From Ginglymostoma cirratum (lineage: Eukaryota), in the NCBI GenBank assembly GCA_024137785.1, contig JAHRHZ010000019.1, positions 27,620,343 to 27,684,342 on the forward strand: DNA of 64,000 nucleotides, written 5' to 3'. This document shows, one piece after another, positions 4,871 to 63,815 of this stretch. A program made the translations under genes and the position numbers. The notes beneath the pieces are model-generated. The model was not told the origin of the DNA. It was given only the letters and a program-made list of their open reading frames with translations, and did not search any database. The number at the start of each line of letters is the position of its first letter. Positions within the stretch are counted from its first letter, which is position 1.

Positions 4871-7488
4871 CTAAACTGTTCTGAAATCAGACCTAAAAAG
4901 ATTTGGAATGAAGAGTTATTATGAGAGCTAATTTGTCTCAATTCAGGAGCAACAAGTCTACTATTCTTAGTTAAGAGGAGGGAAATGACTTTGGATGGAA
5001 ATATAAATGTGTGCACCCTATCTATGTAAAAATGATGCATTAAATATTATTTCCTCTGTATAAGCTAAGGATAACACTCAGACGTCCAACAACAGGTCTT
5101 AATGGCAATATACGTTTGAGACATTAAAATACCAGAGAAAGATTATTGTAGTCTTCTCAACATTTTTGTTTCCACAGATTTTTTAAAAGATTCATTAAGA
5201 TACTATTTTCAAATTGAATTTGGGCTACTGGTCCTAACAAAGGAATCTTGATAACCGAGCATAATGTCCATATTTGAGGTGTGAATTGCTGTTCAGCATG
5301 TTTTTCCAGCAAGATAAGATGTTTGAGGTCTTAGGAATTGCAAGTCTAAGAAAACACTCTAATGCTCATCAAATTGTCTGGGGAAAATTAGACCCTCACT
5401 GTGGGAATGAGGCACATTTATGGGTACATGGGCTCCAGTTCACTTTTAAATGCATGCAGCTCTTGAAACAACCTTAGGTACTCTGAAACAATATTCATTC
5501 TCAGTAAAAGAAAAGTCACATTCTGTGAACCTGATATATACAGTTGATGTGATAAGCTGCATGAAGAAGAGCAATCTTTCTGCGGATGAATTTGCTAAAG
5601 TAATGACATCTCCTTTCACCTTCTCTGTTAATATGCTATTTGGCATTTCTCAGTGTATGGGAAGGTGCATTTTCTACTTTCAAAAATGCTACATTTATTG
5701 ATGGTCCTTCATTTCTTCAGCCCAGAGCTCAACTCCCTATCAAAGCTACCATTCAACCCAGTTGATAATCTGTCTTTCTTCATTACTGCTTTTTTTTTAC
5801 TCTCTCTAGCCAATCTCTAGATGGTCTATTTGACATATGCCTTCGCACAGCTCATACATGACACGGTACATGCTGCAGGAAATGTGAATTTACCTGGTTG
5901 AAGAGAAAGGTGTGCAAAATGGACACAGGGCCTAAATCCCGACATTGGCTGTTCCTTGATTTCTATCCCACAAGCCTCCAGAGACTGCAGAAGAACCTGA
6001 ATTGTCTTGATTTGTTCAAGTCTTTTACAATGGCCAAATTTCATACTTTCCAGTTTCTCTACATACTTTGTGTGGCGTCATGATACTCTAAATATTATGA
6101 ATTGAAAACATAATCTGTTGTGTAGGAGTTAACATATTGGTTGTGGTGTCAATTTCAAGACAAGATAAGCAGTGCTCAACTTTAGCCTCACTTAATTATC
6201 TAGTTCCATTTTATGGCCACCCATTTCCATTCTCATGTTCAAGAAAGATGATGTTATATTAAGCATCTATAAAGGGAGACCTGAGCTGAAAAAAGCCTGT
6301 AGAATGGCATAATTATGCATTTTCTTTTGTCATTTTTCATTTAGTCCATGTGACGGTCTTGTAAAGACAATTTCTACTGTCATTTCTAATTCAGGAAATT
6401 AAAGTGTAAAAATACACAGATACTTTCATGTCTCCTGCCCAGGAAATGCTACTTCATTATGGAATGTTTTATGATTATGTATTTTAAAAACATCTTTCTT
6501 ACAAAATCAAGTCAAAATGAATACTGATAACATCAAATCATAATGAGTGATGATAACAGTCTTTTGTTATGTAGCTTGTTTCCTGTTTTGTTGTTGAATC
6601 CCACAGAGGTTTCAGGGTAAATGCAGAGTGTGACATTAACACAGAGGGTCCCCTGTGTTGCAGGCTGGTCTTAATTAGGGTGGTACATTTGGTCAGCATG
6701 CTCCTGAATAGGAAGAAACTAGATCAGCCCAGTTCCTGTTACTAATGATGAATGTGATGGAAATGGTCCCTTTTTGATTCAAATTACAAGAGTTCAAGAT
6801 CTTTCTTTTTATTTCTTAGTAAATGCATATACTAATTTTTCCATTACATAAGTTGGCACATGTTGTGTTGCGTCACAAATGCTTTCAGATCATTTATTTA
6901 TATTGGACTTGTTTTACTCCATTTGTGGATCAACCACTTGTAGCCCGGTTGTTTTCATGAGAGTGACTAGGTCAGTATGAATTCAAGTAATTCTTGACTG
7001 TCTGGAATTTGGTATTGATTTACATCGAAGTGAAAAGCCCGAGGGCAGGAAGGGAAGAAGAACTACTAGATTTTTCCAGCCGTGAATTGATGATAGCTTG
7101 GATCGTCTTGAGATAAAGTCACATATGTGAGGGATGCAAACTATTTTCAAAATACTTTATATGACAGGTCATTATATCTTTGCTTATGGCTGCTGATCAT
7201 ATCGTTATTTGTCATGTGTTAACTATGGTAATGCCTCAACTCAGGCTACCATATTTAGTAGCTAAGAGACCTATTTTAGTCGTGATATTTGTAACAGAGA
7301 TAAAGATTTTTTCCCTCTGGGCATAAATCAGTGGAAAATGCCTATTGTTCTTTTCAACAACAAAATTAGGCAGTTTTCCTTCTGGTAATGATTGTATAGC
7401 TCTTCAAACTTCATAACCGTTTCATTAGCAGTTTCCTCTATCACACCAACAATCCTATCTTTTAAAGAGAAATGGCTTTGGTTATAGA

Positions 7489-7651
7489 AATAGTAGGAAC
7501 TGCCGATGCTGGAGAATCTGAGATAACGAGGTGTAGAGCTGGATGAACACAGCAAATCTGAAGAAGGGTCCAGACCCGAAACGTCAGCTTTCCTGCTCCT
7601 CTGATGCTGCTTGGCCTGCTGTGTTCATCTAGCTGTATACCTTGTTATCTC
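7489..7651 (+). mobile_element. Palindromic PLE-terminus-derived mini-element (family A) with hammerhead-like core
   Basis: Inverted arms 7520-7554 and 7617-7651. CTGAAGA(7558)-a-gggtccagaccc-GAAAC-GTC. 16-bp TSD tggc(t/a)ttggttataga at 7473-7488 and 7652-7667. Confidence 0.85.
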
Positions 7652-7753
7652 TGGCATTGGTTATAGATGCTTTTAAAAAATCTGAGCAGATGTGTTATGA
7701 CACACTTTGGGGGTGGGTGTCATTTGAACACTACCATTGAACAAGAGTATGGC

Positions 7754-8056
7754 GGGGATAATCCCGCCCCCTTGACCTGTCCGTCCTCCCTGGACTGACC
7801 TATCTCCTCCCTACCCCCCTACCTACACTCACCTTTACTGGCTCCATCCCCGCCTCTTCGACTTGTCTGCCTCCTCTCCACCTATCCTCTCCTCTATCCA
7901 TCCTCTATCCGCCTCCCCCTCTCTCCCTATTTATTTCAGAACCCTCTTCCCCTCCCCCATTTCTGATGAAGGGTTTAGGCCCGAAACGTCAAGTTTTCCT
8001 GCTCCTATGATGCTGCTTGACCTGCTGTGTTCATCCAGCCCCATGCTTGTTGTCTC
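7754..8056 (+). mobile_element. 5'-truncated Penelope-like element 3' end/pseudo-LTR (family A)
   Basis: C/T-rich 3'UTR followed by the family A terminus. Perfect 15-bp TSD gaacaagagtatggc at 7739-7753 and 8057-8071. Confidence 0.85.
7959..7994 (+). ncRNA. Minimal type I hammerhead ribozyme motif
   Basis: attt-CTGATGA-a-gggt ttag gccc-GAAA-C-GTC-aagt. All core nucleotides present, 4-bp stem II, palindromic ACGT stem III, weak 4-bp stem I (attt/aagt). Confidence 0.6.
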
Positions 8057-8804
8057 GAACAAGAGTATGGCATTGGTTTTACATTTCCAAAAACTGTTTC
8101 TTCACTATAAGTTTTGCAAAACAGGTGTGCAAAAATGATGTCTTTTTTCCTGCTGTTCCTTTTGTTCCATATTAAAGAATCTGCCTCAGGCCTTTGTGAA
8201 AAGAATAAAAACGGAACCAAATGGGTTTTATTTTCTTCCATTACTTTTGGTGAAAGGGCAGATAGAAAACATATATAACGTTCATGGGAGCATCAGTCGT
8301 AAAGATAATAAAACTAATGGCTATGATCTTGGGACTTCCTGTCCGCCAAGTGTCAGACAGGCCTGTATCACTGCCTGAATTATTCAGTATCTCCAAATTC
8401 ATTTTCCTGATTTTCAATCTCGTTCCAACTTCTTGAAAGCCTTTGAAGGCACAGTCGGACATTCTAAGGCACTGGGCACCATGTATATTTATGACCTTAA
8501 CTTCCTAGGAGCACAAATCAAGAAAGATCTCTTGGAGGTACAGATTAACCTGGTCACTGATACGTCACTGATAATTAGACAATGCCATGAATTATTGTCT
8601 TTTAATAATATATTCTCACACAGTGTGCTAATTTGTTCTGCCTTCCCTTGTACACAAATTTGTGCATGTCAAGCCAAAACACATTGTCAATTCAGGTCTC
8701 TCAGCTGATCCCAGTGAAGAACACCACAGGGACTCTTTATATGGTATCATGCATAGGTATCGTGAAATTGTGTTCAATCAAGAATTAAGTGAGAATTTAT
8801 TCTG

Positions 8805-8922
8805 GTTTTGTGGTGCCCTGGTGGTGTCCCTATCTCTGGACTATAAGGTCTAAGTTCAACTCCCATCTGACTTGGAGATGTGTCATGTCCATGTCCAAAC
8901 ATGTCCAAGCAAGTTCTGATTA
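8805..8922 (+). mobile_element. Short tRNA-derived SINE
   Basis: gtggtgtccctatctctgga...agttcaactccca (B-box-like). Homologous to 11284, 43578, 43715 and 44516. Confidence 0.6.
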
Positions 8923-10134
8923 TTGGAAGTTAAAAATTAACCCTCCCGGGCACAAGTTGGCAATTTAAAAGGATTTCTGAATACTAGATCCGAGAAATAT
9001 TTTAGCATTACATTAATTCCCTGACATATTACTAGTTCTTGTACAAAATGTTGGAAAGATAGTGCTTTGGAACCATATCATGTTTTATGGTGGATGGAGG
9101 AAGATTCTCAGAAGCATTTGGGCCTGGGAGTCTAATGTAAACCTTGGTAATTACTAAAATGATTTGTTGTTCTTTATTGAAAGATAAAGTAGAATAATGT
9201 TAAAACATTACTAATGTGAACAGACATCAATTCATATTCTTTTCCCAGCTATTCACAAATGGATGAGGAAATGATTATATATCTGGCCATAATTTTAAAA
9301 TCATATCATTAAAAATAAAAAAAGTTTGCACACGTGCATTTATAGCATCAAAAAATAATAGGTGCAAAATGCATCAACATTTCCAATTTTCCTATTGGGT
9401 AGAAAGTAATGAGCCATCAGAATTAATTCTGCAAAGCTTGGTCTAAAGTTCCCAATGCAACTTTGCAAGGTTGCACAATTATGGCTGTTAATTGACCAGA
9501 CACCCAGCCAAACAAATCTAGTGTAATTTCTGCTTTATGAGGAACACACCTGGTTTTCTTAGGAGTGGAAGAAGTTGATAAAGAAGGAATGGCTCTAGCT
9601 GTTTATCATGGGGCTCTTCTGGTTAACTGGGTTTAGTGGTGGGTAGGTTTCTCCAGTTTTCATTGGGGGAGTATGGCAGAACTGTGATATTTGAACTGTC
9701 ATACTATAAACTGAGTACTGCTGACAGAAATTTGGTCAAAAATAGCAACCTGCAAGAAACCACCTAGTAATTTAAAGTTCAACAAAAATGTGATTCTGAA
9801 TTCAGATCTCAATACAGGTGAAATTAACTTTTTTATTGCCTGGCTATAATCTGGACCCTGATGAAAACAATGCAGAGCTGCACTCTTGCTGGGTATATGC
9901 TAAACCTTTTGATAGTACAGAATTTGAGGTCATTTCTCTGGCTATTAAAATGAGCTTTTTAGCTTTCAGACCATACCCTAAATTAAGTTGGACCACAGAG
10001 GAGGCTGCAGATCTGGACAACTCAGTAACCACAGCAGGGTGGGCATCAATTGCATTAGAACAGTAGGTGTTGCATGCACCCGATATTATTGCTTTGTCTT
10101 GTTGAAAAGCTGATATGCGTGTGTGCGTGAGAGA

Positions 10135-10460
10135 AAGAGAGACAGGACGAAATACTCCTGCATTACTGTTTGGAAGGAGTTCCACAGTCTTGACTGAACA
10201 GCAATGAAGCAACTTCAGTGCAGTTCCAAATCAGATTGATGTGTGTCTGAGGGAACTTGCATGTGGTAGTGTTCCCAAGAAGAGCAGCAGTTGTCCTTCT
10301 GTACAGTAAGAATCATAGGTCCGGAAGGTGGTGTCGATGAAAGTTTGACAAGTTGCTGCTGCATGGCTTCTTATAGATGGTGGAAAGAGTTTGAGGTGTT
10401 AGGGTAGGTTACTGACAGCAGAATGTGCAGTCTCTAACCTGCTCTTACAGCACAGTATTT
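10135..10460 (-). mobile_element. Non-LTR retrotransposon fragment (1605/40790 family), antisense
   Basis: gttccaaatcagattgatgtgtgtctgagggaacttgcatgtggtagtgttccca is the reverse complement of 1670-1725. Confidence 0.6.
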
Positions 10461-11009
10461 CACAAAATATATTAGTTCCCTTTCTCCTCTTTTTTTCTCT
10501 CTTATGACCTTTTGGTCTGTAAATTACACTAATGCACAAAATCCCAATATTTAAAATACTTAACATTTCAAATCCTTCCTTGAATTCAACATAATCTTAC
10601 CATTGCAAAATGTTCTGTAAGTTGCCCGGAAATGCTTTCCAACAATGACTGTGAATTTCTTTTAACCATCAACATTTTGAATTGTTGCTGTATACTGCAG
10701 ATGAACAGTGCTGCAAAATATGTTCACAATTTAATAGAAGTCCTATCTTTTGCACATGGTTTGCCAAAATATTCAAGCTGTTCAAGTGGAACATTTCATT
10801 TGGGAGATTGACTCCAGAAAAGCAACATTCACTTGAAAAATTCTTTCCATTAAAACAGCTCTAAATTTTCCAAACAAATACACTTCCTTTTACGATCAAA
10901 AACAGGCGAAGAGAAAATAAAAGTCTAATTTAAACAGCCTTTGTCAACTCAAAACTAGGAAATGTATAAAAAGAATGAGCATCCCCAAGCTGAGCTCAAA
11001 TAAAAAGAG

Positions 11010-11690
11010 TTGCAGATGATATAAAACTTGGGAGAATTATAAACTGTGAAGAATACAGTATAGTACTTTAAAAAGATATTGAGAAGTTGATGGATTGGGC
11101 ATATAGTTGGCAGATGAAGTTCAGTGCAGAGAAGTGTGAGGTGATGCACTTTGGTACAAAGAAGATAGAGGGACTGTATAATGTGGGCTTGTGGTACCAT
11201 GGTAGAAGGTCAGAAGTTTGTGCATTCAAATCGCATCAGGTTCACTGAGTTTCACTGCAACTCAAGTTCTAGGATTTTGTAGTTCTTGTGCACTATTTGC
11301 CGTGTCCCTACCTCTGGGCCAGAAGGCTCTGAGTTCAATTTCCACCTCATGCAGAGGTGTATAATAACATATTTGGACAGGATCATTAAAGAATTTTAGA
11401 ATAAAGACTATCACTCCAAAGGGTGTGCAGGAGCAGACAGACCTGAGGATGTGAATACATTGGAGAGAGTGCAGTTGAGGTTCATAAGAATGGACCCGGG
11501 AATGAGAAAGTTCAGTTATGGGAATAGAGTGGAGACATTGTTATTGTTTTCCTTGGAGAGGGAAAGGCTAAGAGGAGATTTGGTAGATGTTTTCAGGATT
11601 ATGAAGGGTCTGGACAGAGCAGATAATAAGAAACTGTTCCTGCTTATAAAAGGATTGAGAGGATTAGGGTTATGGTTAAAGTGTTTGCTT
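11010..11690 (+). mobile_element. CR1 LINE ORF2 3' fragment interrupted by a SINE
   Basis: WQMKFSAEKCEVMHFG at ~11110-11155. ORF 11451 LERVQLRFIRM...FSLERERLRGDLVDVFRIMKGLDR. Confidence 0.8.
11284..11390 (+). mobile_element. Short tRNA-derived SINE nested in CR1
   Basis: gtgtccctacctctgggccagaaggctctgagttcaatttccacc...gaggtgtataataacat. Confidence 0.65.
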
Positions 11691-14094
11691 AATGCTGAGA
11701 TAAAACATGTATTCAGGTTTGTGGGGAAAAAAAACTTTTAATCCTATTAGCTTGTGTCATGAATCCAGTAAGCGTATCAAAGCTGCAATTTCTTATTACA
11801 ACTTCTTGAACTATACTTCATTCTTAGACGAACGTAACAACTGCTGAGCTCAAACTCATTGGCTCCTGAAACTCACTGAAGCATTGCTAATAGTTACATT
11901 AATGCCTAGATGTTAGACTGCTCTAAAGGACAGGTACTCCTTTCAATTCAAAACAAAGTACCTGCTAATCAATGTAGGAAAGCAAATGGTTAACTTTTTT
12001 TAAGTGGCAAAACTAGCCTTTTTAAAATTAACCAGAGGCAATTAAATCACAGTTGAAAAAATGCCAGTGCAGGGTGATAGAACATTTTGATACATTTTTC
12101 AGTGGATTATGGTGCTTTCTCCACTGTGAAAGTACTGTAATGTATGTGAATAAATGCACAAGGTCTTTCAATATAAGGATCAATTCACCTTTGAAGCACA
12201 GATAGACATGATGATTCATGATGATGCATCAAAAATGCATCTACATCACAACAGAGCAATTAATAGTAGCACTTTAATGCTTGGAAACATTTTACACTTA
12301 CCATCTGGAATGTTCTAGACTCTTCTTCAGGGTTTTCTCTACATCAGGCATTCGCAACCTGCAAAGCAGCTAGAGGAAAATGTCATGGGGTTTGGAAATG
12401 CAGAGGAAAATGGTATTTCCTCATAAATAAAAAAAAAACTAAACGTGGCCATTTGTGTGCTGCAATGTGCTTTTGAACTCTGGTAAATATCGGGCCAAAA
12501 TGTGTACTATTGCATTCTAATCTGGAATTAGGTTGGAAGTTCAATTGATAAACATAACTGACTGGACACTCTTCTGTGTGACAATGTACCCATGGTCATT
12601 TAAGCAGTTAATCAGTGTTGTAGTAATGAAGTGTAGGAGTAGAAAGGCCGTACTCCTGTTGATCAAGTACAGAAAGTTCTGGATTACAGCCCACACACTG
12701 TACATATTGTAAATTCCCTTCTTGCAGTAGGAATGACTGCCACTGATTTGGCCCTTGTTGTTGAACTCTTGCTTGTCAGTTGAAGTTCACACAGATTTTT
12801 CACCAGGCCTGCCCAGAAAACTGTCTCCTCCAACTTCCTGTGGACTTGCGTAATATTTCCTTGCTTCTTGCATAACCATGATTTCTGGCTGGATCCCTGT
12901 CCAAGTCCTATTTGTGAATTACAAAAGCTGTTGTGAAAGTGTAGTCACCAGTAAACAATGAAACATACAACGAAGTTATTTTACGGCATCAGATTGTATT
13001 TACATTAAAGAAAATTCTGGTCATTCCAAATCAGCAAACAAAGGCTGAGGTTTGACGTTATCCTCACGGAACATTAAGCTTGACGCATACCATATTGTTT
13101 AGTACTGAAACAATGTTTCAAACCTACAAAGTATAGAGTGCCAGCAGTTTTTGTGTCACTTGTCTATTACTTGAAAATATCTCTGCTCCATATAAATATG
13201 GAGCTTGTTAAATACGCTTTTCCCTGTTGCTCTTCTGGTTATTAAAGGTAATGAAGATCAAGCTTTTTTAAAACATGATCAAAATGAAATAGAGTTGGAG
13301 CAGTAATTCAGAGTGTAAACATCTCCACAAAGTGTTGTACTTTGATTCCCATGGTGCAAATTGCTCAAATCTGATGGTTGGTTGGACTGATAGTAAAGTT
13401 CTATGTTGTGGATAATGGTCATATCACATCGGTGATGGGGATGGTAAAGCTAACATCTTCTGTTTTATTTTGATGCAGCCATTCCTTGAAGTTGGCTTGT
13501 GGTCATATATCTTTCCTGTAGTATAAGGGGTTAAGTCTGATGGTGTGATGTGATAAGGAAACTCAGTTTGCATCATCAAAATGTCATATGATTTCACGCT
13601 CTCTGGTACGTAGAATAAAGTAGCAGTTGTTGAGTTATCAGGTTTGAAGATAATGAACTTGGATTTACAAAGAGATCTATGACTATGCAAATAATTATAT
13701 TCAAAGCATTACAACAGTGCACAAAAGGTATGCCAAAAGCATTATATCATTGTAATTCCAATTTGTATTGATGTTTGATCAGAGGCATTGGATGGTTATA
13801 GTTCACAAATAGCTTACAACAATGTTGAATTCAGTTTCGTTTGACATGAAGGTATTTCGGCCAGTTCATCCAAAAATTTTCTTCATTTTACCTTAGTTTG
13901 TTCCCCAAGTAAAAATTGCATATAAAGGTTGCAATATGTCGCTGTCTTAATTATCACCAAATCTCTCACCAATTCTATTCTGGGGATCAAGATCGACCAA
14001 ATATTTAACTAGAAAGGCCATATAAGTACTGTTGCTACAAAAGACTCGATATACTAGTGAGTAACTAATAAACTGACTTCTGAAAATCTGTTCA

Positions 14095-14365
14095 AATCTA
14101 AAGGGACAACTCATGAGTGTGATGGGATATTCTCCACTTGCTAGGATGAGGGCAACCCCAACAATACTTGAGAAGCTTGATACAATTCATGACAAAGCAA
14201 CCCACTTGATCAGTACCTGTACATAATCTTCAAAATTTGTTGCCTCCTTCATTAGTGCAATGAGTCTGCAGTGTGTGTGATCTACAAGATACACTGAAAC
14301 TTACCAAGATTTCTTTGATAGTATCTCCCAAATATGTGATCTCTACTACTAGGAGGACAAGAACG
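14095..14365 (+). mobile_element. Non-LTR retrotransposon ORF2 C-terminal fragment
   Basis: Reads approximately MSVMGYSPLARMRATPTILEKLDTIHDKATHLI. The 3' part matches 1605-1650. Confidence 0.65.
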
Positions 14366-15412
14366 TAACTTCGAAATCCTTCCATGGCCTTGCCCCATCG
14401 CAGCTTAGGGATTTCTTTCAGTCCTCACGTCCATCCATTAGTCTTGTTAACCAATTATTTCAGTCCACTATTGGCAGATTCTCATTCCATCACTCACCTC
14501 CTAATCCTGGAGTACACTTCTAAGTTCCCTGTGCGTGATCACTTTCCTTCTTCTCTCCTTTTTGTTTTGGAATCTCCACAAAACAACACCCATAGGAAGC
14601 ATGTTTAATGTTGAGAAAGGTCCTATGCTACTTAAGAGAAGCAAATTCAATAAGTATGAAAAGTTATGTTTAGTGGTTGGCTTCAGCTTTCTAGTCTTCA
14701 TTTTTTTTAATCCTTGGCATTCACTTTTATCCTTCATAGAGCAAAGCTCTGGACATGTTTTCTTCTATGTGAGAAACTCGGTAGAAACACAAACTTATTG
14801 TTATCTCCATCACAATACTGCAAGAAAATCAAAATATTTAAGAAAATTGAATCAAATTTGTTTTGAGTTGTGCAGAGGCTTTACTGGTCTGCTAACATTA
14901 GGAGTTATCTGTAGAACTTCAGCGATTGTACTTTCAGTGGGTGAAATATCTAGTATTTTTCTGCAAAAAATGCAGTAAACCTGCAAAATAATGCGGATTT
15001 ACTTACCACAGTGTATCACCAATACTTCAATATTTTAGTTCAGAAAAGTTAAATTAATTTTAAGATTCAAGACATAAAGAGACCCTTCATTTTTAATCAA
15101 TGTTGCATAATGAAGCCATTAAAGCATCAACAATATTTGTTATGCTCACCACAGGTCCATCAGCAGAAATTATAATGCTTTGTTTTAGCAATGCCAGCCT
15201 TGGTGAAAATATGAGACATCTGGATTGTGAGCATCAAGCTCTTTATAATTATAACATACAAACATACAGACTGTAGTGGTACAGCCAAAACCCCTTAATG
15301 CAACTCCAGCTGTAAACATTAGCAATTTTAAGAGTTTTGACAGTTGATCCCTCAGAAATTGCACCTCTTTTTGGATTACTGAAACCAGCTGGTATAAATG
15401 CTGGTATAACAC

Positions 15413-16658
15413 ATAAGAACATAAGAACTAGGAGCAGGAGTAGGTCGTCCGGCCCTTCGAGCCTGCTCCGCCATTCAATAAGATCATGGCTGATCTTTTC
15501 GTGGACTCGGAGCCACTTACCCGCGCTCTCACCGTATCCCTTAATTCCTTTATTGTTCAAAAAAAATCTACCTTATCTTTAAAAATGTTTACTGAAGTAG
15601 CGTCAACTACTTCATTGGGCAAGAAATTCCATAGATTAACAACCCTCTGGGTGAAGAAGTTCCTTCTCAATTCAGTCCTAAATCTGCTCCCTCTAATCTT
15701 GAGGCTATGCCCTCTAGCTTCACCTGCCAGTGGAAACATCCTCTCTACTTCTATCTTATCTATTCCCTTCATAATTTTATATGTTTTTATAAGATCCCCC
15801 CTCAATCTTCTGAATTCCAATGAATATAATCCCAATCTACTCAGGCTCTCCTCATAAGCCACCCTCCTCAACTCTGGAATCAACCTAGTGAACCTCCTCT
15901 GCATCCCCTCCAGTGCTAGTACATCCTTTCTCAAGTAAGGAGACCAAAACTGCACACAGTACTCCAGGTGTGGCCTCACCAGCAGCTTGTACAGCTGCAA
16001 CATAACCTCTCTGCTTTTAAACTCAATCCCTTTAGCAATGAAGGACAAAATTCCATTTGCCTTCCTAATTACTTATTGTACCTGCAGACCAACCTTCTGT
16101 GATTCATGCACAAGGACACCCAGGTCCCTCCTGCATAGCAGTATGCTGCAACTTTTTACCATTCAAGTAATAATCCTTTTTACTATTACTCCTACCAANN
16201 NNNNNNNNNNNNNNNNNNNNNNNNNNNNNNNNNNNNNNNNNNNNNNNNNNNNNNNNNNNNNNNNNNNNNNNNNNNNNNNNNNNNNNNNNNNNNNNNNNAT
16301 CAATCCCTTTAGCAATGAAGGACAAAATTCCATTTGCCTTCCTAATTACTTATTGTACCTGCAGACCAACCTTCTGTGATTCATGCACAAGGACACCCAG
16401 GTCCCTCCTGCATAGCAGTATGCTGCAACTTTTTACCATTCAAGTAATAATCCTTTTTACTATTACTCCTACCAAAATGTACGACTTCACATTTAATTAC
16501 ATTGTATTCCATCTGCCAGACCTTTGCCCATTCACTCAATGTATCTATGTTCCTCTGCAAAGTTTCACAGTCCTCTGCACACTTTGCTCTGCCACTCATC
16601 TTAGTGTCATCTGCAAACTTTGACACCCTACACGTGGTCCCCAACTCCAAATCATCAA
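15413..16658 (-). mobile_element. Relatively young 5'-truncated CR1 LINE (RT C-terminus + 3'UTR)
   Basis: ORFs with VSKFADDTK, WQMEYNVIKCEVVHFG, LVRPHLEYCVQFWSP, RLRGDLI, FFTQRVVNLWN. (ttcttatg)n tail. 8-bp TSD tataacac at 15405-15412 and 16659-16666. Confidence 0.95.
16199..16298. other. Assembly gap (100 N) with duplicated flanks
   Basis: 16023-16198 is repeated at 16300-16475. Confidence 0.95.
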
Positions 16659-16689
16659 TATAACACCCGAAATATCTAGAAGTTAACTC

Positions 16690-16805
16690 TAATGGCAATG
16701 CAGCACTGCCTCAGTACTGCACTGAAATGTCAGTCTAGATGATTTAGGAAGTTCTGGAGTGAGGCTTGACTTGACAGTTATCTGTTTCAGAATCTGACAT
16801 TGACT
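16690..16805 (-). mobile_element. Deu-domain SINE (SacSINE1/AmnSINE1-like) 5' fragment
   Basis: caatgcagcactgcctcagtactgcactgaaatgtcagtctaga is the antisense of the conserved gcagtactgagggagtgctgca motif. Confidence 0.6.
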
Positions 16806-18619
16806 TACTTTTTTTGAATTTGTGATATACCTTTTGATCGCAACTTTGTAAGTTCAAGACAGAATGAAAGACATAACGAATTAGACAAGGGCCCAAACAT
16901 ATTAATAGTAATCTTGGCATTTAGCAAGTAACAATTGGCAAATGAGGATAAGGTTAGCATTAGTTTATCACGCATTAGTAATTTCTGCATTTGGCAATAA
17001 TATAGTTAGTGACATACATTGTCAAATCACATGGCACAGAGAATTGCAAATCAATTTTTGGATTGGATTGGGATCAGTAGATGGAATTAGAATTCCACTT
17101 TCATCTCTGTGTCTCTCAGAGAATGGAGATAGTCATTCCAGACTACTTAGATTGTATTGAAGACATTTTTGAGTTCTCCTTACCTGTCAATTATATTCTG
17201 TGTGGAAACTGTAAGTCAGGATTTAAATCTGTTCTGCATAGAAACTGCACAAAAGAGTAAACATCCATGTGTAGTGTACATGATTTAAGAAGCATCATTT
17301 TCATTACCTGTATGATTGTTTTAGAATGCCCTTCTGAATCCCACAAAGCTTTCTCTATCCATACATACTCCTCAATATCACATTCCCCTATGGAGCCTCT
17401 TGATCTCTCTGTACTTACCTTTCGCACGGTGGGTGGTTTCCTCAGCAATGCACCAAAGTCTACATAACATGTTTAAATCCATTACTGGGGGACCAGCCGG
17501 TCAATACCAAAGACCTCATGGTACGCTTGTCCACCTTCACCACATTGGTTGACTCAAAGTTTGGGTCAGACGCCAAGCTTAAATTATTTAAGTGAGACCT
17601 GGAAGTTAAAATAGTCATGCAGGCAATCCTCACACTCATTCTTAGGTCCACATAATGGGTTTTCTCACTCACACATCCCACCCAGTTGAAATCAGAACTA
17701 TAGTCTCTTACCGCTATTAAAAATAGGGTTGCAGGTGTGGGTCATGTTACAAAGGAGGTGTTTTTCTGTAAAAGGGTGAGCTGTAAACATACATCAGAGG
17801 CTGGACTGTCTCAGAAAGTCTAAATGCTTCTTGTTTACACCAGTCAGTACAGTAATCTTTATGTGGAATCATGCATGTCAACCCGAGACAACTACAAGCA
17901 GGCCCCTTTTCAAAATCAGATAAGTTCTTTCTAGGGCACTTGTTTACAACCAATAGGATAATTAGTCTTCTCTTATCTGACGCTGATTGGAATCATTTGT
18001 AGAACATCTGACTTAGGCACCTCCCTTGGATGGACTGCCCTGTAAAATTAAAATCTGGAGCAACACTCTGCTTTACCAGAACTGGAGCAACAGATGTATT
18101 GAATGTTTCCAGCTTTTACTGGATTTTACACTGCACAAATATTTTCATCTTAACTATTTACTCGAGTTGTTTCATTCCTGTGTTATACACACTGCGCTGC
18201 ACGCCCAAATGACACATTGGAAAAAATGTTTGACTGTGACAGGGACCAGTGACTGGCTTCAATGGAAACAAGTCTAAAGCCATAGCCATCACACATGGCA
18301 GTTTCTAGCAACTAGGATGGCCATTCACTTCAACTTTGCATGTGTTAGCTATACTCTGAGAATTTTAAAATTTTCTTATTTTATAACCGACACAATTTTA
18401 TAACCTACACTTGACCTATGACATAGGCCTTCTGAAGTGGGCAACCATTGTACGTGGAGCAAGTTTCCATTACAGATAGCATCTCCAAACAAAAAGTCTA
18501 ATACAAACAGTCCACTGAGTGGATTTGAAGATGCCATATAGACTTCAGCGCAGTACTAAGGAAATGCTACAATGTTGGAAATGCTGGGATTGTCTTTTTT
18601 TTTGGAAAGCTGAATTTTT

Positions 18620-18815
18620 AAGAACTCATTCACTGGATATGGGCCACCGTTTATTGTCCTTTACTAATTGCCTAAAGGGTAGTTAAGAATCAACCATGTT
18701 GGTAGGGTCTGGAGTCACATGTAGGCCTGACCAAGAAAGGACAGCAATTTCTTTCCCTAAAGATTTTGGGTTCTAAAGGATATTAGTGAACCTGATGCAT
18801 TTTTCCTAATAATTG
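18620..18815 (-). mobile_element. Non-LTR retrotransposon 3'-end fragment, antisense
   Basis: cattcactggatatgggccaccgtttattgtcctttactaattgcc resembles the antisense of the 1860-1920 tail. Confidence 0.5.
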
Positions 18816-18944
18816 TTTCAAAGACATCATCACACATTATCAAATGCAAATTTCACATCTGACATGTTAACATTTGAACCCAGGACCCCAGAAAATCACC
18901 AGAGGCAGGTAGGCAGAGTGAGAATGCTACACTTGGGGTTTCCC

Positions 18945-19290
18945 ATAGATTTCCATGGCAGCAGTCTTGGTGCCTTCATTCTGCAGCGGCCTACTGTGCT
19001 AACTGCATTTCAGTCATTGTGGAAAGCCAAAGGCTGGTCACTAAGCATCAAAGTTATCTGCTCACAATATGACATGTGGCTCCAATGTATAACACACACA
19101 CACACACCCACACCACGCACACAGTAAAAGCCATGCTGCCACAGATAGTGTGATAGAGCAGGTCATTGGTGTGTTGAAACAAAACATCTGCTGCAAGGCT
19201 TGCTGAGGGAGAACCCTGTAGTACTCTGTAGAATTAGTGCCAAGACTCCCAGTGCTCTGTTAGATGTGGCACAACCTCACACACATGAGA
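18945..19290 (+). mobile_element. Decayed PIF/Harbinger (HARBI1-like) DDE transposase
   Basis: FHGSSLGAFILQR (~PGSSHDAFILR), SHAATDSVIEQVIGVLKQ (~H..TR..IE..IG.LK.RF) and a ...HNL motif near 19270-19280, with frameshifts and stops. Confidence 0.75.
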
Positions 19291-20339
19291 GGACAGTCTG
19301 TGCCAGCAGCTACAATGGAAGGTGCTGAGGAGCAGGAGTTAGAGGATGGAAGGAGACAATCTAGAGAGCCCAGATGCAGACTGCATTATGGTGGAATGTG
19401 CTGGCTAGCTGATGGGCAAAAGCAGGGACAGTAATAGAATAACACAGTTGGAATGATGAATGCTGTCACCCGGAGAGAAATTGGCAGACTCATTGGCACC
19501 TTGGAACCAGTACCATGCTCCTGAGACAGTGCCTCTGTAATCCTGGAAATCTGTTGATCCTGTTTGCACACAATTCGTGTTCCCCTGTATGATGTTCCAT
19601 CAAAATGCTCATTTCTGTACAGTACTTGTGTATGGACTCACCCTTCACTCTATTTCAAAAGTTGTGTAAAGCACCATAAGATAACCTGAGTAGGTAAGGC
19701 TAGATTCAACAGTCATTTTCAAAAGGGAATTGAAAGTAAACTTTTAAAGAAAAAATGCCCTTTACCAAAGCAAGTACAGGTACTATTGGCTGAACAACTT
19801 CCTCTGTTTTAAGTTAATGATAAAAATGTAAATATTATCTTAACATAAAAATGGCAATTACGGATGTATCAAAGTCTGTAATCCTCATTTTTAGTCCAGG
19901 TTTACTGCTCCAACTTCCTTTCACAATGAAGTCCGACACATTGTTGTTTGCTTAATATAAAACTGTTCAGAAGCAAGCAGACGCTTTTCCATCAAAGCAA
20001 AATACTATGCATGCTGGGAATCTGAAATAAAATGCAGCAAGTGATGCTATCAATGATTTGATGAGGGAGAAGAGAATGAATGCAAGGTTGTATTCATCAC
20101 CTGAATGCTAATCTGTTAGAATGGAGAATTTCCAGTTCACTGGGACAAAAATCAGACTTTATGATGGACTGTTAGTGCAGTCTGACAGATTATTCCCCAG
20201 ACGGTGAAAGTGAGATTGATACTGGGTAGCTTTGGGCTTCCCTTTTGCCGATCCTGGAGCATGTTGACTTGTCCAAGAGTGAGCATTAGACCAGCTATCT
20301 GGATTCAGCCTGCAGGTTCTTACATTGCAGAAAGAGACC

Positions 20340-20730
20340 ATCACCCCATTGCATTTCCTTTTTGAACTATATATTCAATCTTTGAAAGTCAGTGCGCTGA
20401 ATTTGCTTTCAATAACATTGCAGCGAGTGCATTCTGGATCACGACCATACATTGTGTAAAATAAAACTGCTTCAATTTCTCTCTGGTCCTCTTGCCAATT
20501 ATTTTAATTCCTTGTCCGTTGGGTACTGGACCTCGCACCTGTGGAAACAGTTTCTCCTTATTTATGCTATCAAATTGCTTTATAACTTTGAATGCATCTA
20601 TTAAATCTTCTCATAATCTTCTTTTACTCAAAGGAGAATAATTTTCGCTACTCTAATCTTGTGTTGTGATTCTCTCATTCTGGTAAACCTCTGCATTTTC
20701 TCCAAGGCCTTGACAGCCTTCCTAAAGTAT
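20340..20730 (-). mobile_element. Old CR1 LINE 3' fragment
   Basis: ggaaacagtttctcc...tataactttgaatgcatctattaaatcttctc...ctccaaggccttgacagccttcctaaag, antisense CR1 C-terminal motifs. Confidence 0.6.
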
Positions 20731-21409
20731 ACTATTTATAATTGGTGTGAAAAAAAATACCCCATGCCTGTTGTCGATAACATTAAGGACCCTCTCAGAG
20801 GAAGGGATCATTGAAAGACCACTAAGAGTAGCTCAAAAGTGGGAGGGAAGCAACAAGTTTGCTGGAGATACATTTGCGTAAGTAGTAATGGAAACAAGCA
20901 AGCACAATCTCATAGAGTGGTCAGTGACATAGATGAATGCGTGTATTAAATACAATGAGACAACAAGGAATAATAAAGAACCATGGGTCACAGTCACCTA
21001 GGTTTTAACTTTGACTACAGACACATTGATACTCTGAGAAGAATAGAAACTGCACTAAAGGGATCAGACGGGACATTTTGAGGAAGAATTGGACATGAAG
21101 CTGGAAGTGTCAGCACAATCAAGGATTTTCATGAAGACTAGGTTTTGTGGTAGCAGACAATATTTCCCTCTGTGCATGGTTTTTAGTGACAGCATGTTGT
21201 TATGTACTGTGGAATTAAAAACAAAAGATGCACGCTTGGTTATTCAGCCATCGAGTGCACAAAAACCACAATTGTGGAATAAAAACAAAATGCTGAAAAT
21301 GGGGAGGGGTTGTTCATTATCTGACAGAGTATATTGAACATTTAAGTTCAGTTTCTTTAACAGTTACGTGAGTTACCCAAAGTGAAAAGTCTTTATTTCA
21401 GATGCTAAC

Positions 21410-22985
21410 TAGTCAATGTTGCTTCTTTGTTTAAGGAGGGCAACAGGGATAATGTGGGAAATTACAGGCTGGTGAGCCTTATGACAGTGGTCGGAAAATT
21501 ATTGGAGAAGATTCTTAGGGACAGGATTTACTCACATTTGGAAAATTGTGGAATCATTAGCAATAGGTAGCGTGGCGTAGTGCAAGGGGGAATTGTGTCT
21601 CACAAACTTGATTGAGTTTTTTGAGATAACAAGGTGTAGAGCTGGATGAACACAGCAGGCCAAGCAGCGTCAGAGGAGCAGGAAAGCTGACGTTTCAGGT
21701 CTGGACCCTTCTTCAGATTTGCTGTGTTCACCCAGCTCTACACCTTGTTATCTTAGATTCTCCAGCCTGGGCAGTTACTATTATCTCTGAGTTTTTTGAG
21801 GAAGTGACAAAGATGATTGATAAAGACGGCAATATCGGTGGATGTTGTCTACATAGACTTTAGCAAGGCCTTTGACAAGGTCCCTCATGGCAGGTTATAG
21901 AGAAGGTGAAGTCACATGGGATCTGCAGTGAGCTGGTGAGATGGATACAGAACTGGCTTAGTCATAGAAGACAGACAGTAGTAGTGGAAGGGTGTTTGTC
22001 TGACTGGAGACCTGTGAACAATATTGTTCTGCAGTGTGTGTATATATAAACTGTTTTGGAGAAGAATGTAGATGGCCTGATTAGTAAGTTTGCAGACAAC
22101 ACAAAGATTGGGGGAGCTGTAGGTAAAGAGGAAAATTGCCCAAGGATACAGCAGGGTATGGATGGGGTGGAGACGTTGGAAGAAGAAATGACAGTTGGAG
22201 TTTAATCTGGACAAATGCAAGATGATGCATTTTGGAAAATCTGATGCAGAAGGGAAGTATACAGTAAATCTCAGAACCCTTAGGAGTATTAACCTACAAA
22301 GGGATCTTGGCATACAGGTTCAAAGTTCCCTGAAAGTGGATTAGGTGGTCAAAAGGCATGCTTGCTTTCATTAGTCAGAGCACCGAGTATAAAAATTGGC
22401 AAGTCGTATTGCAGCTGTATAAAACTTTAGTTAGGCCACGTTTGCAACATTGAATACAGTTCTAGTCACCACACGACCAGAAGGATGTGGGTGATTAGGA
22501 GAAGGTACAGAAATGGTTTTCCAGGACATTGCCTTGTTTGGAAGATATTAGCTATGAGGAAAGATTGGACAAATTTGGTTTGTTTTCACTTGAATGTCAG
22601 AGGATAAGGGGTGACCTGATAGAAGTTTACAAAATTTGAGAGGCATGGATAGAATGGATAGTTGGAGACTTTTTCTCAGGATAGAAATGTCAACTACTAG
22701 GGGACATACCTTTAAGGTAAAAGTGTAAAGTAAAAATGAGACAAGAGAGGCAAGTTTTTTACACAGAAGGTTGTAAGTGCCTGGAATGTGCTGCCGGAGG
22801 AGGTAATAGAAGCAGTTACAATAGCAATGTTTAAGAAGCATCTTGACAGATACATGACTAGGCAGGGAATAGAGTGATATGGACTATATATAGGCAAAAG
22901 GTTTTTAGTTTAGAGAGGCATCAGTATCGATGCAGCCTTGGTGGGCTGAAGGGCCTGTTCCTGTGCTGTACTGTTCTTTATTCTT
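21410..22985 (+). mobile_element. CR1 LINE, RT domain to 3' end, interrupted by a PLE mini-element
   Basis: GNYRLVSL...LTNLIEFF[insert]EEVTKMID...DVVYIDFSKAFDKVPHGRL...ISKFADNTKIG...RIRGDLIEVYKI. 3' tail gggctgaagggcctgttcctgtgctgtactgttct. Confidence 0.93.
21623..21787 (-). mobile_element. Palindromic PLE mini-element (family A), same architecture as 7489-7651
   Basis: The reverse complement aligns end to end with 7489-7651, including the junction cacagcaaatctgaagaagggtccagacc. TSD tgagttttttgag at 21613-21625 and 21788-21800. Confidence 0.9.
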
Positions 22986-23139
22986 TGCTCAGGAAAGGCA
23001 GCATTTTCTCCTTCTAATTCAGACCTTGCTCTTATTCCAGATATAATTGTGATAAAATTGGACGTTAGGTAGACATTCATGGAGGAATATTGTAACTAAC
23101 TCTGGCAGTTATGCATTGAATAAGTGTTTTATCTTGTTG

Positions 23140-23405
23140 CTACCTCTATTCTTTGCTTTTTGTTGTATGACTTGGCCATTTAATCTCCACTTCCCTAATC
23201 TAGATCATCCCTTTTGTTCTTCCTTGTGCTCGCCATATTCAATGACATATAACCCAGCACATTTCCAGCCTCCTTCAGTTTTGAAGAAGTCATTTTCAAC
23301 TCAAAACATTAACTGTTTTTCCCTCACCATGGATGTTGTCTGACCTGCTGAGCGATTCGAGCACTTTCTATTTTTGTTTCAGATTTCCAGAGTAATATGC
23401 TTTTA
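23140..23405 (+). mobile_element. Old PLE 3' end with degenerate hammerhead motif
   Basis: cagttttgaagaagtcattttcaactcaaaacattaactg...tgacctgctgagc...tttttgtttcagatttccag. Confidence 0.6.
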
Positions 23406-27919: not shown

Positions 27920-28036
27920 TCTAGGCCCGAAACGTCAAGTTTTCCTGCTCCTATGATGCTGCTTGACCTGCTGCGTTCATCCAGCCCCACGCTTGTTATC
28001 TCGGATTCTCCAGCATCTGCAGTACCTTTTATCTCT
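27920..28036 (+). mobile_element. PLE terminus (family A) truncated inside the hammerhead stem II
   Basis: ctaggcccgaaacgtcaagttttcctgctcc...ttatctc plus tail. Possible TSD aatatagt at 27905-27912 and 28037-28044. Confidence 0.85.
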
Positions 28037-28794
28037 AATATAGTGTCTTTACTCAGTTTCAAGGGATAGTGTCCACTGTACAATGCAATATTTTTCTGTT
28101 CTTATATCATCCATCCTGTTAAAACCTTTCTCTTGCAATACTAGAGAATGCTACAGGAAAATGATAAAAAGAATTAGGAAAAATGTATTATTAGTCATAT
28201 CATTTATGACGTTTTCAAGTGGCAAGAAACAGAACAAGGGAGAAAGAAAATTGCTGAGAGTTATGAAATGTGTTCCGTCATTGCAAATCATGTTTTATGT
28301 GTTAAATTTAATGGAGAACTAGGGAAGAAAGTAGAAGAAAACCATGATTCTGAGTTTTTCTGGGGCAGCTGAAATTCTGCCAATGGGGCTGAAAGCAGGA
28401 AGCAGGCCAACCTCAGGAGCTTGAGGAACCTAGAGGACATTTTGCCAATGGCAGCCAATTGACAAGCTGAAGCCAGAACTGTCATCCAATAAAGAGTGAG
28501 GGCCCAACCCCTAGAGATACTGACACATCAGATTACTGGCAGCTCTGCTGGTGGGGACCATTGCTGAGGCTCAGGGAGAGAGCATCTCATTGATGAGGCT
28601 CACTCTAAGAGCAGGTAAGTTTCCAGGAGGAAGCTGGGTCTAGGCAGGCAGAGAAAATACAATCCCATAGGTTGGACTTTTATTGCTAATGCATATTGTT
28701 CATTTATTGATTCTGACAATCATGTGTTAATTACAGCACTATTCTTCTGGTAACGTGGGCTTGGAATGATAAGCACTTTAACTTGCAGTCCTGA

Positions 28795-28920
28795 CGCACA
28801 TGAGACCAGAGTTGGAAATTCATAATCTCAGAGGGTTGTGGGATTGGAAGAGATTACAAATATAGAGTGGAGTAAGGCTATGGATGGACTTGAAATTAAG
28901 GATGAGCATTTTAAAAACTA
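28795..28920 (-). mobile_element. L2 LINE fragment
   Basis: Near copy of 30070-30195. Confidence 0.6.
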
Positions 28921-29859: not shown

Positions 29860-30270
29860 TAGTGGACCCAACTCAATGACAAGACCCATAGAAAATTATT
29901 AGATCTGATGACCAAAAGACAGGACAGAGAGGTAGGTAAGGTAGGTTTTAAGGAGATTGTTAAAGGAGGAAAGCATTGTCATGAAGTGGAACTGTTTAGC
30001 GAAGGAATTCAAAGGCCACAGCATTTGAAATAACAGCTGCTAATCACGGAGCGACTAAAATGGTAGATGCACACCAGGCCAGAGTTGGAAGCTCATATAT
30101 CTCAGAGGTTTGTGGGATTGGATGAGATTACAAATATCGGGAGGGGCAAGGCTGTGGATGGATTTGAATTCAAGGACGAGCATTTTAAAATCAAGATTTT
30201 GCTGAGTCACGAGTTAATACGGGCCTCTGAGGGTAAGGCTGATGCTTGATAGAACTTTGTGCAAGCAAGG
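29860..30270 (-). mobile_element. L2 LINE 3' fragment
   Basis: aggccagagttggaag...gggaggggcaaggctgtggatggatttgaattcaaggacgagcattttaaaatc is the antisense of DFKMLVL.FKSIHSLAP...SNSGL. Confidence 0.7.
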
Positions 30271-35360: not shown

Positions 35361-35966
35361 TGATTTCGATTGCGGTCACTATGTTTATATAGGACTCCAT
35401 AAGGAGCAAAGAATTGCCAAATATGTGGCAAGATTGAATAACCCTATGTAATTTTCCATTAGATAGTATAAAAGTATTGAAACAATTAAACAAGAATGTG
35501 GCACATTCTGATATTTGCGTATGACTGCACTGTATGTTTAAACTTTCTTATGAGAGTCTTCTAAAATATACATATATTACCCATCAATCCTGGCATTCTT
35601 AAAATGGATATTTAATCAAGTTTAAGTTTGTGTTTCCAAAACCACTTATATGTACATTATGAAAAGGACCTTAGAGAATGCTAAGTATATCTTGATTAAT
35701 ACTTTAGTGCTGAGCAAGGAGTTTCCTTGTTTATTCAATACCAAGATAATGCTCACTCATAGGTTAATGTAGTTGTAATCAACAGCAATGCACATTTGAC
35801 ACCTGGGTTTTCTCGTAATTGCTTCAGCCTCTGGAACTAATGTGTCAGTTGATATCTGGACACAGGTTAGAACTAGCAGCTATTTCCTCAAATTAGGTTA
35901 ATCTAAATTGCATGCACTCAGCTATAATCATTTTGAAAAAAAACAGGCTTCAACTAAAACATATCA

Positions 35967-36537
35967 GAGATAGTAGGAACTGCAGATGCTGGAGAATCTG
36001 AGATAACAAGGTGTAGAGCTGGATGAACACAGCAGGCCAAGCAGCATCAGAGGAGCAGGAAGGCTGACGTTTCGGGCCNNNNNNNNNNNNNNNNNNNNNN
36101 NNNNNNNNNNNNNNNNNNNNNNNNNNNNNNNNNNNNNNNNNNNNNNNNNNNNNNNNNNNNNNNNNNNNNNNNNNNNNNNNNNNNNNNNNNNNNNNNNNNN
36201 NNNNNNNNNNNNNNNNNNNNNNNNNNNNNNNNNNNNNNNNNNNNNNNNNNNNNNNNNNNNNNNNNNNNNNNNNNNNNNNNNNNNNNNNNNNNNNNNNNNN
36301 NNNNNNNNNNNNNNNNNNNNNNNNNNNNNNNNNNNNNNNNNNNNNNNNNNNNNNNNNNNNNNNNNNNNNNNNNNNNNNNNNNNNNNNNNNNNNNNNNNNN
36401 NNNNNNNNNNNNNNNNNNNNNNNNNNNNNNNNNNNNNNNNNNNNNNNNNNNNNNNNNNNNNNNNNNNNNNNNNNNNNNCTGCTCCTCTGATGCTGCTTGG
36501 CCTGCTGTGTTCATCCAGCTCTACACCTTGTTATTTC
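35967..36537. mobile_element. Palindromic PLE element (family A) with unresolved centre (400-N gap 36079-36478)
   Basis: Left arm gagatagtaggaac...gacgtttcgggcc and right arm ctgctcctctgatgc...ccttgttatttc are reverse complements. Confidence 0.9.
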
Positions 36538-38330: not shown

Positions 38331-38440
38331 GTGTCAAGCAGAGATGGTTTGAAGTCCTATGAACTCTTTGAGAGCTTCATTCCCCATGCAGCTTTTGTTA
38401 GGCCCACTCTAAATGGGCAAAGGCATATATTAACACAGAG

Positions 38441-58390: not shown

Positions 58391-58627
<237 letters not shown>

Positions 58628-63730: not shown

Positions 63731-63815
63731 ATGATGCTGCTTGGCCTGCTGTGTTCATCCAGCTCTACACCTTATCATCTTGGATTCTCCAGCATCTGCA
63801 GTTCCTATTATCTCT
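63731..63815 (+). mobile_element. Short PLE terminus (family A)
   Basis: tgatgctgcttggcctgctgtgttcatccagc...gttcctattatctc. 9-bp TSD catgcacat at 63722-63730 and 63816-63824. Confidence 0.85.

What the first reader, a model, noticed from the sequence alone, without database searches (positions are those of the whole stretch)
7489..21787. A ~165-bp fold-back, hammerhead-bearing retro-element that appears to propagate as a unit
Seen: 7489-7651 (+) and 21623-21787 (-) align end to end and share the same non-canonical internal junction (cacagca|aatctgaagaagggtccagacc), where an inverted partial PLE terminus is fused to a forward one. Each has its own unrelated 13-16 bp TSD, and one sits inside a CR1 ORF2. 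Known: PLE insertions often carry an inverted 5'-truncated pseudo-LTR, and PLE termini carry minimal hammerheads. Inference: an identical junction at two independent sites means the palindrome was itself copied. That would make it a non-coding, MITE-looking but PLE-derived non-autonomous element (retrozyme-like) with no Pol III promoter. I do not know of a description of this unit.
Basis: partly seen in the sequence, partly recalled or inferred. Interest (0 to 1): 0.8.

Follow-up and report, generated by a model that had tools for sequence, protein, structure and literature searches.

The report
Twin fold-back Penelope-end insertions in shark
Two short retrotransposon-end insertions in a shark genome share an odd internal seam, which suggests, but does not prove, that a tiny hairpin piece of a Penelope-type element was being copied around as a passenger in its own right.

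Summary
In detail: 7486-7651(+) and 21623-21788(-) are 166-nt, 92%-identical, ungapped copies with unrelated flanks, their own 16- and 13-bp duplications and one shared junction.

Most of the anatomy is ordinary Penelope-like (PLE) insertion: an inverted end with a 34-nt tail plus a forward end with a minimal hammerhead. All 9 family ends in the window fall on two fixed positions, so the end-to-end match says nothing; only the junction counts. It is idiosyncratic: a 35-nt left arm and two bases absent from the parent. Three fold-backs of this family inferred from predicted proteins have different junctions, all near the hammerhead edge, so that breakpoint is a hot spot.

Best reading (0.5): one junction was re-copied in trans by the PLE enzyme, probably from the anti-hammerhead strand. 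Rivals: repeated de novo formation (0.27) and gene conversion between neighbours (0.14). It is not a retrozyme by definition: one hammerhead, helix I cut to 1 bp, no tandem. No third copy was found, but no shark genome was searchable. Counting copies alone will not decide; shared private mutations will.

The parts
7473..7488 (+). Left target-site duplication of copy A (16 bp; last 3 bases also read as the tail end)
   Evidence: matches 7652-7667 with 1 mismatch
7486..7519 (-). Copy A: inverted 34-nt PLE tail; its outer end is the second fixed family end (inferred RT start site 2)
   Evidence: 5 of 5 tail-bearing copies end at this position; tail = stretch between two RT start sites in PMC11167929
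7520..7554 (-). Copy A: inverted 35-nt terminal piece, left arm of the stem
7555..7556 (+). Copy A: two junction bases not found at this place in the parent forward strand; they complete a 7-nt repeat of the tail boundary (unit positions 30-36 and 70-76) and also equal the next bases of a longer inverted arm
7557..7651 (+). Copy A: forward 95-nt terminal piece, from the hammerhead edge to the first fixed family end (inferred RT start site 1)
7558..7585 (+). Copy A: minimal type I hammerhead core (complete core, extra base before a 4-bp helix II, palindromic helix III stub; helix I only 1 bp)
   Evidence: features as in PMC4209133
7617..7651 (+). Copy A: right arm of the 35-bp stem
   Evidence: 4 arm mismatches
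7652..7667 (+). Right target-site duplication of copy A
21613..21625 (+). Target-site duplication of copy B (13 bp, 3 bases shared with the element end)
21623..21717 (-). Copy B: forward 95-nt piece; hammerhead core 21716-21689 with a C-to-T change that turns the conserved helix II base pair into G-U; right arm 21657-21623
21718..21719 (-). Copy B: the same two junction bases
21720..21754 (+). Copy B: inverted 35-nt piece, left arm
   Evidence: 2 arm mismatches
21755..21788 (+). Copy B: inverted 34-nt tail
21788..21800 (+). Second target-site duplication of copy B
21300..23050 (+). Decayed LINE (CR1-like by recalled motif) RT region that hosts copy B; outer limits approximate
7754..8057 (+). 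Comparator: older-subfamily forward copy with 3' UTR, hammerhead with 4-bp helix I, 15-bp duplication, no tail
27920..28036 (+). Comparator: forward solo copy ending in the tail
35966..36537 (.). Comparator: inverted tail-bearing arm (at least 113 nt), a 400-N gap, then a forward arm; probably a longer fold-back that did not assemble
63731..63815 (+). Comparator: forward solo copy ending in the tail, 9-bp duplication

Best explanation
The unit is a non-coding, non-autonomous derivative of a shark PLE end that was copied more than once from one source junction by a PLE protein acting in trans. Origin (inferred): an ordinary two-sided PLE insertion, one cDNA started at the tail end and one at the first start site, was joined with an unusual seam. 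Either a symmetric fold-back lost about 62 nt of its left arm, or the join slipped on the 5-7-nt repeat shared by the tail boundary and the hammerhead edge. Propagation (inferred): read-through transcription of the strand opposite the hammerhead gives an RNA that is a 35-bp hairpin followed by a free, correctly oriented tail. The PLE protein nicks a target and primes at the tail end. The other end is set by priming at the first start site on the complementary strand, which gives exact ends and a 13-16-bp duplication. The hammerhead is a passenger and is not cut on the copy path. Shown: anatomy, separate duplications, identical seam, fixed ends. Not shown: any third copy, any transcript, the parent ORF, or priming on this template.
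For: Identical two-breakpoint junction plus two non-parental bases at two sites with unrelated flanks and their own duplications. The other family-1 inverted arms I could see all run further than 35 nt: 1 of 1 in the window and 4 of 4 in predicted proteins, where they reach the hammerhead and 3 of 4 fold back with three different seams. A and B share a tail base absent from the other 3 tail-bearing window copies. Neither arm carries a change shared by A and B against the partner arm, and the 6 stem changes are uncompensated, which fits neutral decay from a perfect source. The minus strand folds as hairpin plus separately folded tail. Assumption-driven odds of a chance match are 2e-5 to 2e-3 per window without a strong hot spot, against 0.02-0.6 for two copies if a family has 10,000-100,000 members. 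PLE ends suffice to move flanked DNA in trans and an antisense template has been proposed (PMC3846280). The anole PLE protein extends both target strands and does not need hammerhead cleavage (PMC11167929).
Against: Only two copies, 14 kb apart; no third copy in any source I could search, although none of these holds a shark genome and only 5 family-derived proteins turned up in all. The right end must be set at start site 1 without the tail behind it, whereas the anole enzyme needed RNA beyond that site in vitro. The forward breakpoint lies in a hot spot and on a microhomology; with strong-hot-spot assumptions a match arises in about 2% of windows. The centre is less diverged than the ends (2 differences in 86 nt; scan p 0.04-0.09, uncorrected), as conversion would predict. 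The shared tail base may be a parent-subfamily variant.
Confidence: 0.5

Rival explanations
1. Both are ordinary dead-on-arrival PLE insertions made from the parent's sense RNA. Two cDNAs start at the two fixed sites on opposite target strands and are joined at a preferred place: the forward cDNA ends at the hammerhead edge and anneals through a 5-nt microhomology, and the other stalls after 69 nt. The seam recurs because the chemistry favours it, or this window is the lucky one among many read.
For: Needs no new capability: inverted 5'-truncated ends with a tail are standard (PMC8557442; PMC3846280). All 9 family ends are fixed. Three protein-inferred fold-backs and several second-family copies break near the hammerhead edge. 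The two junction bases can be templated from the tail boundary.
Against: The three protein-inferred seams all differ, and none of the 5 other inverted arms stops at 35 nt. Folding of six sense copies gave no consistent barrier at the left-arm end: it lies at a helix edge in one copy and inside or near helices in the others. The protein-inferred seams could be gene-model splice artefacts, which cuts both ways.
Confidence: 0.27
2. Two independent fold-back insertions landed 14 kb apart, and later one centre was overwritten by the other through ectopic gene conversion, helped by the fragility of a long palindrome.
For: Proximity and inverted orientation; lower divergence in the middle (2 of 86 against 11 of 80; scan p 0.055 at two differences, 0.039 at three; loop against rest Fisher p 0.13).
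Against: No central substitution is shared by A and B that is not also seen as a family variant in predicted proteins. The flanking homology is short (69 and 95 nt). The scan signal weakens to p 0.07-0.09 when two adjacent changes are merged.
Confidence: 0.14
3. An assembly or sequencing artefact: a short-read assembly collapsed or gap-filled one palindrome with reads from the other.
For: The assembly has gaps, one inside a fold-back of this family and one flanked by an exact 176-nt duplication. The copies are identical over 33 nt across the junction.
Against: A 33-nt identical run is expected at this divergence (p 0.61). Copy-specific bases flank it on both sides, and the missing piece is one-sided, unlike polymerase skipping of a hairpin (inference).
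Confidence: 0.04
4. A retrozyme: the hammerhead cuts a transcript, the RNA circularises and is reverse-transcribed by rolling circle.
For: A complete hammerhead core is present; animal retrozymes derive from PLE ends (bioRxiv 10.64898/2026.07.22.740005).
Against: One hammerhead per unit, no tandem, helix I of 1 bp against 4 bp in the older copy, helix II poorly populated in B. A single minimal hammerhead did not cleave in vitro (PMC4209133). The copies are not permuted at the cleavage site.
Confidence: 0.03
5. A DNA-type MITE moved by a cut-and-paste transposase.
For: Short, non-coding, hairpin-forming.
Against: The inverted repeat is not terminal (offset by 34 nt), the duplications are long and unequal (16 and 13 bp), and every base but two maps to a retroelement end.
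Confidence: 0.02

Closest known systems
Inverted-pLTR insertions of endonuclease-bearing Penelope-like elements (Arkhipova 2013, PMC3846280; Craig 2021, PMC8557442)
   Same: Inverted 5'-truncated end next to a forward end, 30-40-nt tail on one side only, target duplication, hammerhead in the end repeat, palindrome-like seam.
   Different: No ORF or body at all, a left arm of only 35 nt plus tail, and the same seam at two loci. The sections and passages I read describe no re-amplified minimal fold-back.
Poseidon of Anolis carolinensis (Frangieh 2024, PMC11167929)
   Same: Hammerhead, then two fixed ends separated by a tail; both target strands extended; cleavage not needed for insertion.
   Different: Shown for an autonomous element and a sense template that runs on past the tail. 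Nothing was tested on a fold-back or antisense template, and the shark parent's clade was not determined here.
Animal non-LTR retrozymes (Cervera and de la Pena 2020, PMC7229834; Li 2026, bioRxiv 10.64898/2026.07.22.740005)
   Same: Short, non-coding, PLE-end-derived, type I hammerhead, long duplications, present in a chondrichthyan, monomers dispersed.
   Different: Defined by head-to-tail tandem units with at least two complete hammerheads and circular RNA; this unit is head-to-head with one weakened hammerhead.
Non-autonomous PLEs such as MRC1 of Chlamydomonas (PMC8557442) and short nonautonomous Penelope elements of Heliconius (PMC6685494)
   Same: Non-coding passengers sharing the 3' end of an autonomous PLE.
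   Different: MRC1-type elements form direct or tandem ends; the Heliconius passage gives no structure, so a fold-back form there is unchecked.
MITEs of cut-and-paste transposons (definition in PMC8969392)
   Same: Small, hairpin-forming, ends alone would suffice for mobility.
   Different: No terminal inverted repeats, long variable duplications, retroelement origin.

Membership tests
Penelope-like element end (pLTR) | Minimal type I hammerhead with extra base before helix II, conserved first pair of helix II and palindromic helix III stub | tested here: met
   against PMC4209133; the pair is G-U in copy B
Penelope-like element end (pLTR) | Optional 30-40-nt tail giving two fixed ends | tested here: met
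   34 nt; 4 of 4 and 5 of 5 ends coincide
Penelope-like element end (pLTR) | Inverted 5'-truncated end flanking the unit, with target duplication | tested here: met
   duplications of 8-16 bp at five copies, plus a 7-bp match not adjacent to the ends at the gapped copy
Penelope-like element end (pLTR) | Linked ORF with PLE reverse transcriptase and GIY-YIG endonuclease | tested here: inconclusive
   No GIY-YIG hit among 342 frames of at least 55 aa. A frame joined to a second-family end (59726-60106) looks like a PLE linker from recall only; Pfam and Atlas gave nothing.
Non-autonomous PLE family | Many dispersed copies of one structure descending from a source copy | not testable with these tools
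   2 copies in 64 kb; no shark genome available; 0 junction hits elsewhere
Non-autonomous PLE family | Non-coding and carries the cis-acting end of the partner | tested here: met
Non-LTR retrozyme | At least two tandem units each with a complete type I hammerhead | tested here: not met
   one core per unit; criterion
Non-LTR retrozyme | Hammerhead able to fold (helix I of several bp) | tested here: not met
   1 bp in both copies against 4 bp in the older copy; a bulged alternative was seen by eye only
Non-LTR retrozyme | Self-cleavage and circular RNA | not testable with these tools
   needs RNA-seq and bench assay
DNA MITE | Terminal inverted repeats | tested here: not met
   35-bp arms offset by the 34-nt tail
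DNA MITE | Short fixed-length duplication | tested here: not met
   16 and 13 bp
Pol III SINE | A and B boxes, tRNA/5S/7SL head | tested here: inconclusive
   No tRNA or Rfam hit. Two-mismatch A-like (unit 16-27) and B-like (81-91) boxes on the hammerhead strand, 2-3% per strand in resampled sequence, post hoc, with mismatches at positions I recall as conserved.

The most novel reading that the evidence does not exclude
A 'retro-MITE': a 166-nt hairpin whose two ends are the PLE enzyme's two reverse-transcription start sites, copied as a unit from an antisense RNA, possibly in tens of thousands of copies in carpet sharks (two per 64 kb would extrapolate to 4-114 per Mb, uncorrected for window selection). 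Any PLE insertion with inverted ends would then be a potential replicon, and the unit would be a minimal natural substrate for the unsolved second-strand and inversion steps of PLE transposition.
Probability: 0.35. Interest if true: 0.7.

Novelty: new variant of a known kind. Interest (0 to 1): 0.45.

Why it matters
How PLEs make their inverted ends, and whether they use an antisense template, are stated open questions (PMC3846280; PMC8557442). A re-copied 166-nt fold-back would be a ready-made test substrate and a head-to-head kind of PLE passenger, distinct from tandem retrozymes and from Pol III SINEs. If the seam is instead a recurrent product, its sequence still maps where the two cDNAs stop and join. 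Either way such repeats are likely to be mislabelled as MITEs or miRNA hairpins and to break short-read assemblies. If it is conversion or chance, it is an ordinary pair of dead insertions.

Tried and rejected
Third copy. Translated junction frames found nothing among near-length proteins. The longer-protein search gave 1 hit among 3 candidates, a Stegostoma tigrinum Mx1-like isoform that begins with a tail-bearing piece of this family but lacks the junction. The representative-library search gave 7 hits: 3 were unrelated repeat proteins and were dropped, and 4 were family-derived, none with this junction. Only two of the six frames were searched. Cluster membership and source names of those proteins could not be retrieved, so their species are unknown. 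Bacterial/archaeal genomes: 0 for a junction probe and 0 for an arm probe. Plasmids: 0. Full-text probes: 0 papers. Bamboo-shark miRNA supplement: 0 in 1 file. The whale shark repeat library (PMC8455134 supplementary file 20) exists but is unreadable here; Dfam, Repbase, shark genomes, RNA-seq, the bioRxiv supplements and the metagenome and viral collections stayed unchecked, so prior cataloguing is open.

Rejected: segmental duplication; end-to-end identity as evidence; structural selection on the stem (0 compensatory changes in 35 pairs, only 2 sequences); a clear RT-pause explanation for the left-arm end; Rfam matches (7 sub-threshold hits elsewhere).

Literature searches that found no description of this unit. 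The library lacks most subscription papers and Repbase Reports.
Full report
Observation. Copies A (7486-7651, +) and B (21623-21788, -) are 166 nt, ungapped, with 13 differences. Each has its own duplication, 16 bp with one mismatch and 13 bp exact, and their flanks are unrelated. B splits a decayed LINE reverse-transcriptase frame exactly at a duplicated EFFE. The junction 16-mer is exact in both and otherwise absent from the window at up to two mismatches. Both fold strongly, but the stem is 35 bp.

Setting. The family occurs in a named zebra shark protein, so the window is probably from a carpet shark; the species was not determined. A HIF-alpha bHLH exon lies in the frame 58391-58627 on +; calling it EPAS1-like exon 2 is recall, and whether A and B are intronic was not settled (no first exon found).

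Anatomy. Unit positions 1-34 are an inverted tail, 35-69 an inverted terminal piece, 70-71 two extra bases, and 72-166 a forward piece from the hammerhead edge to the family's usual end. Four other family-1 loci serve as comparators. All four tail-less ends coincide and all five tailed ends coincide. This matches the PLE tail, which in the anole element is the stretch between two RT start sites, with both target strands extended (PMC11167929, parts 1-3 of 4 read; a supplement search found none of three terms). Inverted truncated ends with a one-sided tail are standard (PMC8557442, passages; PMC3846280, parts 1-4 of 5; PMC8969392, passages). So the PLE assignment rests on end anatomy, not on an ORF: none was found in 342 frames. 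The end-to-end match is expected of any fold-back.

The junction. The older copy has a T run before the hammerhead, and P0004 and P0003 read through it accordingly, so the two bases are not the parent's forward sequence. They can be templated in two ways: as the next bases of an inverted arm that once reached the hammerhead, or as a copy of the tail boundary, since a 7-nt word occurs at unit positions 30 and 70. Both imply a multi-step seam. Of four family-derived proteins from the representative library, all have inverted arms that reach the hammerhead; three fold back there with three different seams and one runs on into the 3' UTR. These seams are inferred from translations of unknown species and may include gene-model artefacts. 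Second-family copies in the window also tend to start near the hammerhead. The forward breakpoint is therefore a hot spot, while the 35-nt left arm is unusual.

Hammerhead. The core is complete and has the minimal-PLE features (PMC4209133, parts 1-2 of 4), but helix I is 1 bp against 4 bp in the older copy, and helix II is barely populated in B. Single minimal motifs did not cleave in vitro, and cleavage was dispensable for insertion. Retrozymes are defined by tandem units with two hammerheads (bioRxiv 10.64898/2026.07.22.740005, parts 1-3 of 5; PMC7229834 and PMC6155905, passages). The unit fails that test.

Weighing the explanations. Assumption-driven arithmetic puts a chance match at 2e-5 to 2e-3 per window, or 2e-2 with a strong hot spot, and two copies of an abundant family at 0.02-0.6; the number of windows screened is unknown. 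For re-copying: one shared private tail base, uncompensated decay from perfect arms, a minus-strand RNA that ends in a free tail, and published trans-mobilisation by PLE ends with a proposed antisense template. Against: no third copy in any searchable source; the right end lacks the downstream RNA that the anole enzyme needed; and there is a weak central low-divergence signal (p 0.04-0.09) that favours conversion, though no private central change is shared. Degenerate Pol III-like boxes offer an alternative, plus-strand route but are weak and post hoc. I assign 0.5 to re-copying, 0.27 to recurrent formation, 0.14 to conversion and 0.09 to the rest.

Prior description. Ten searches found no description of this unit. 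Short nonautonomous Penelope elements are mentioned without structure in PMC6685494 (passages), and rearranged inverted Penelope copies as siRNA sources in PMC3681739 (passages). The whale shark repeat library (PMC8455134, passages and supplement list) could not be read, and for PMC3789328 I saw only the search listing and a supplement search. Repbase, Dfam and unseen supplements may already hold it, possibly labelled as a MITE.

Verdict. A real and well-delimited pair built from known parts, with one unexplained seam. It is at best a new variant of non-autonomous PLE, is not a retrozyme, and is undecided until a genome-wide phylogeny of junction copies is made. Interest 0.45.

Noticed in passing
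window 58391-58627 (+): Frame with a HIF-alpha bHLH exon (Pfam bHLH_HIF1A, E 3e-36); EPAS1-like by recall. The first exon was not found, so the copies may lie in a long first intron or upstream.
   Followed up: partly
window 38432-38612, 59223-59416, 54482-55182, 48333-48447, 23267-23394: A second, related family of hammerhead-bearing ends, three of them as fold-backs with different seams; several forward arms start within a few bases of the hammerhead edge.
   Followed up: partly
window 59701-60188: An open frame on the minus strand, PLE-linker-like from recall, joined in inverted orientation to a second-family end; Pfam and Atlas gave no hit.
   Followed up: partly
window 35966-36537: Family-1 inverted and forward arms around a 400-N gap, probably a longer fold-back that failed to assemble; short-stem fold-backs may be over-represented among visible ones.
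   Followed up: partly
window 16023-16475: An exact 176-nt duplication either side of a 100-N gap inside a LINE copy, probably a scaffolding artefact.
   Followed up: no
window 7501-7512 and 7566-7576: Two-mismatch A-like and B-like Pol III boxes brought 65 nt apart by the junction; the tail base shared by A and B falls in the A-like box.
   Followed up: partly
protein P0009; also P0003, P0006, P0007: This repeat family is built into shark gene models, for example the N-terminus of a zebra shark Mx1-like isoform; it may be exonisation or annotation error.
   Followed up: no
window 38869-38995: An unrelated AT-rich palindrome (56-nt arms, 82% complementary, 15-nt spacer), MITE-like, not examined.
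   Followed up: no
window 28793-28916 and 30066-30190: A 125-nt direct repeat pair, 85% identical, 1.3 kb apart; not identified.
   Followed up: no
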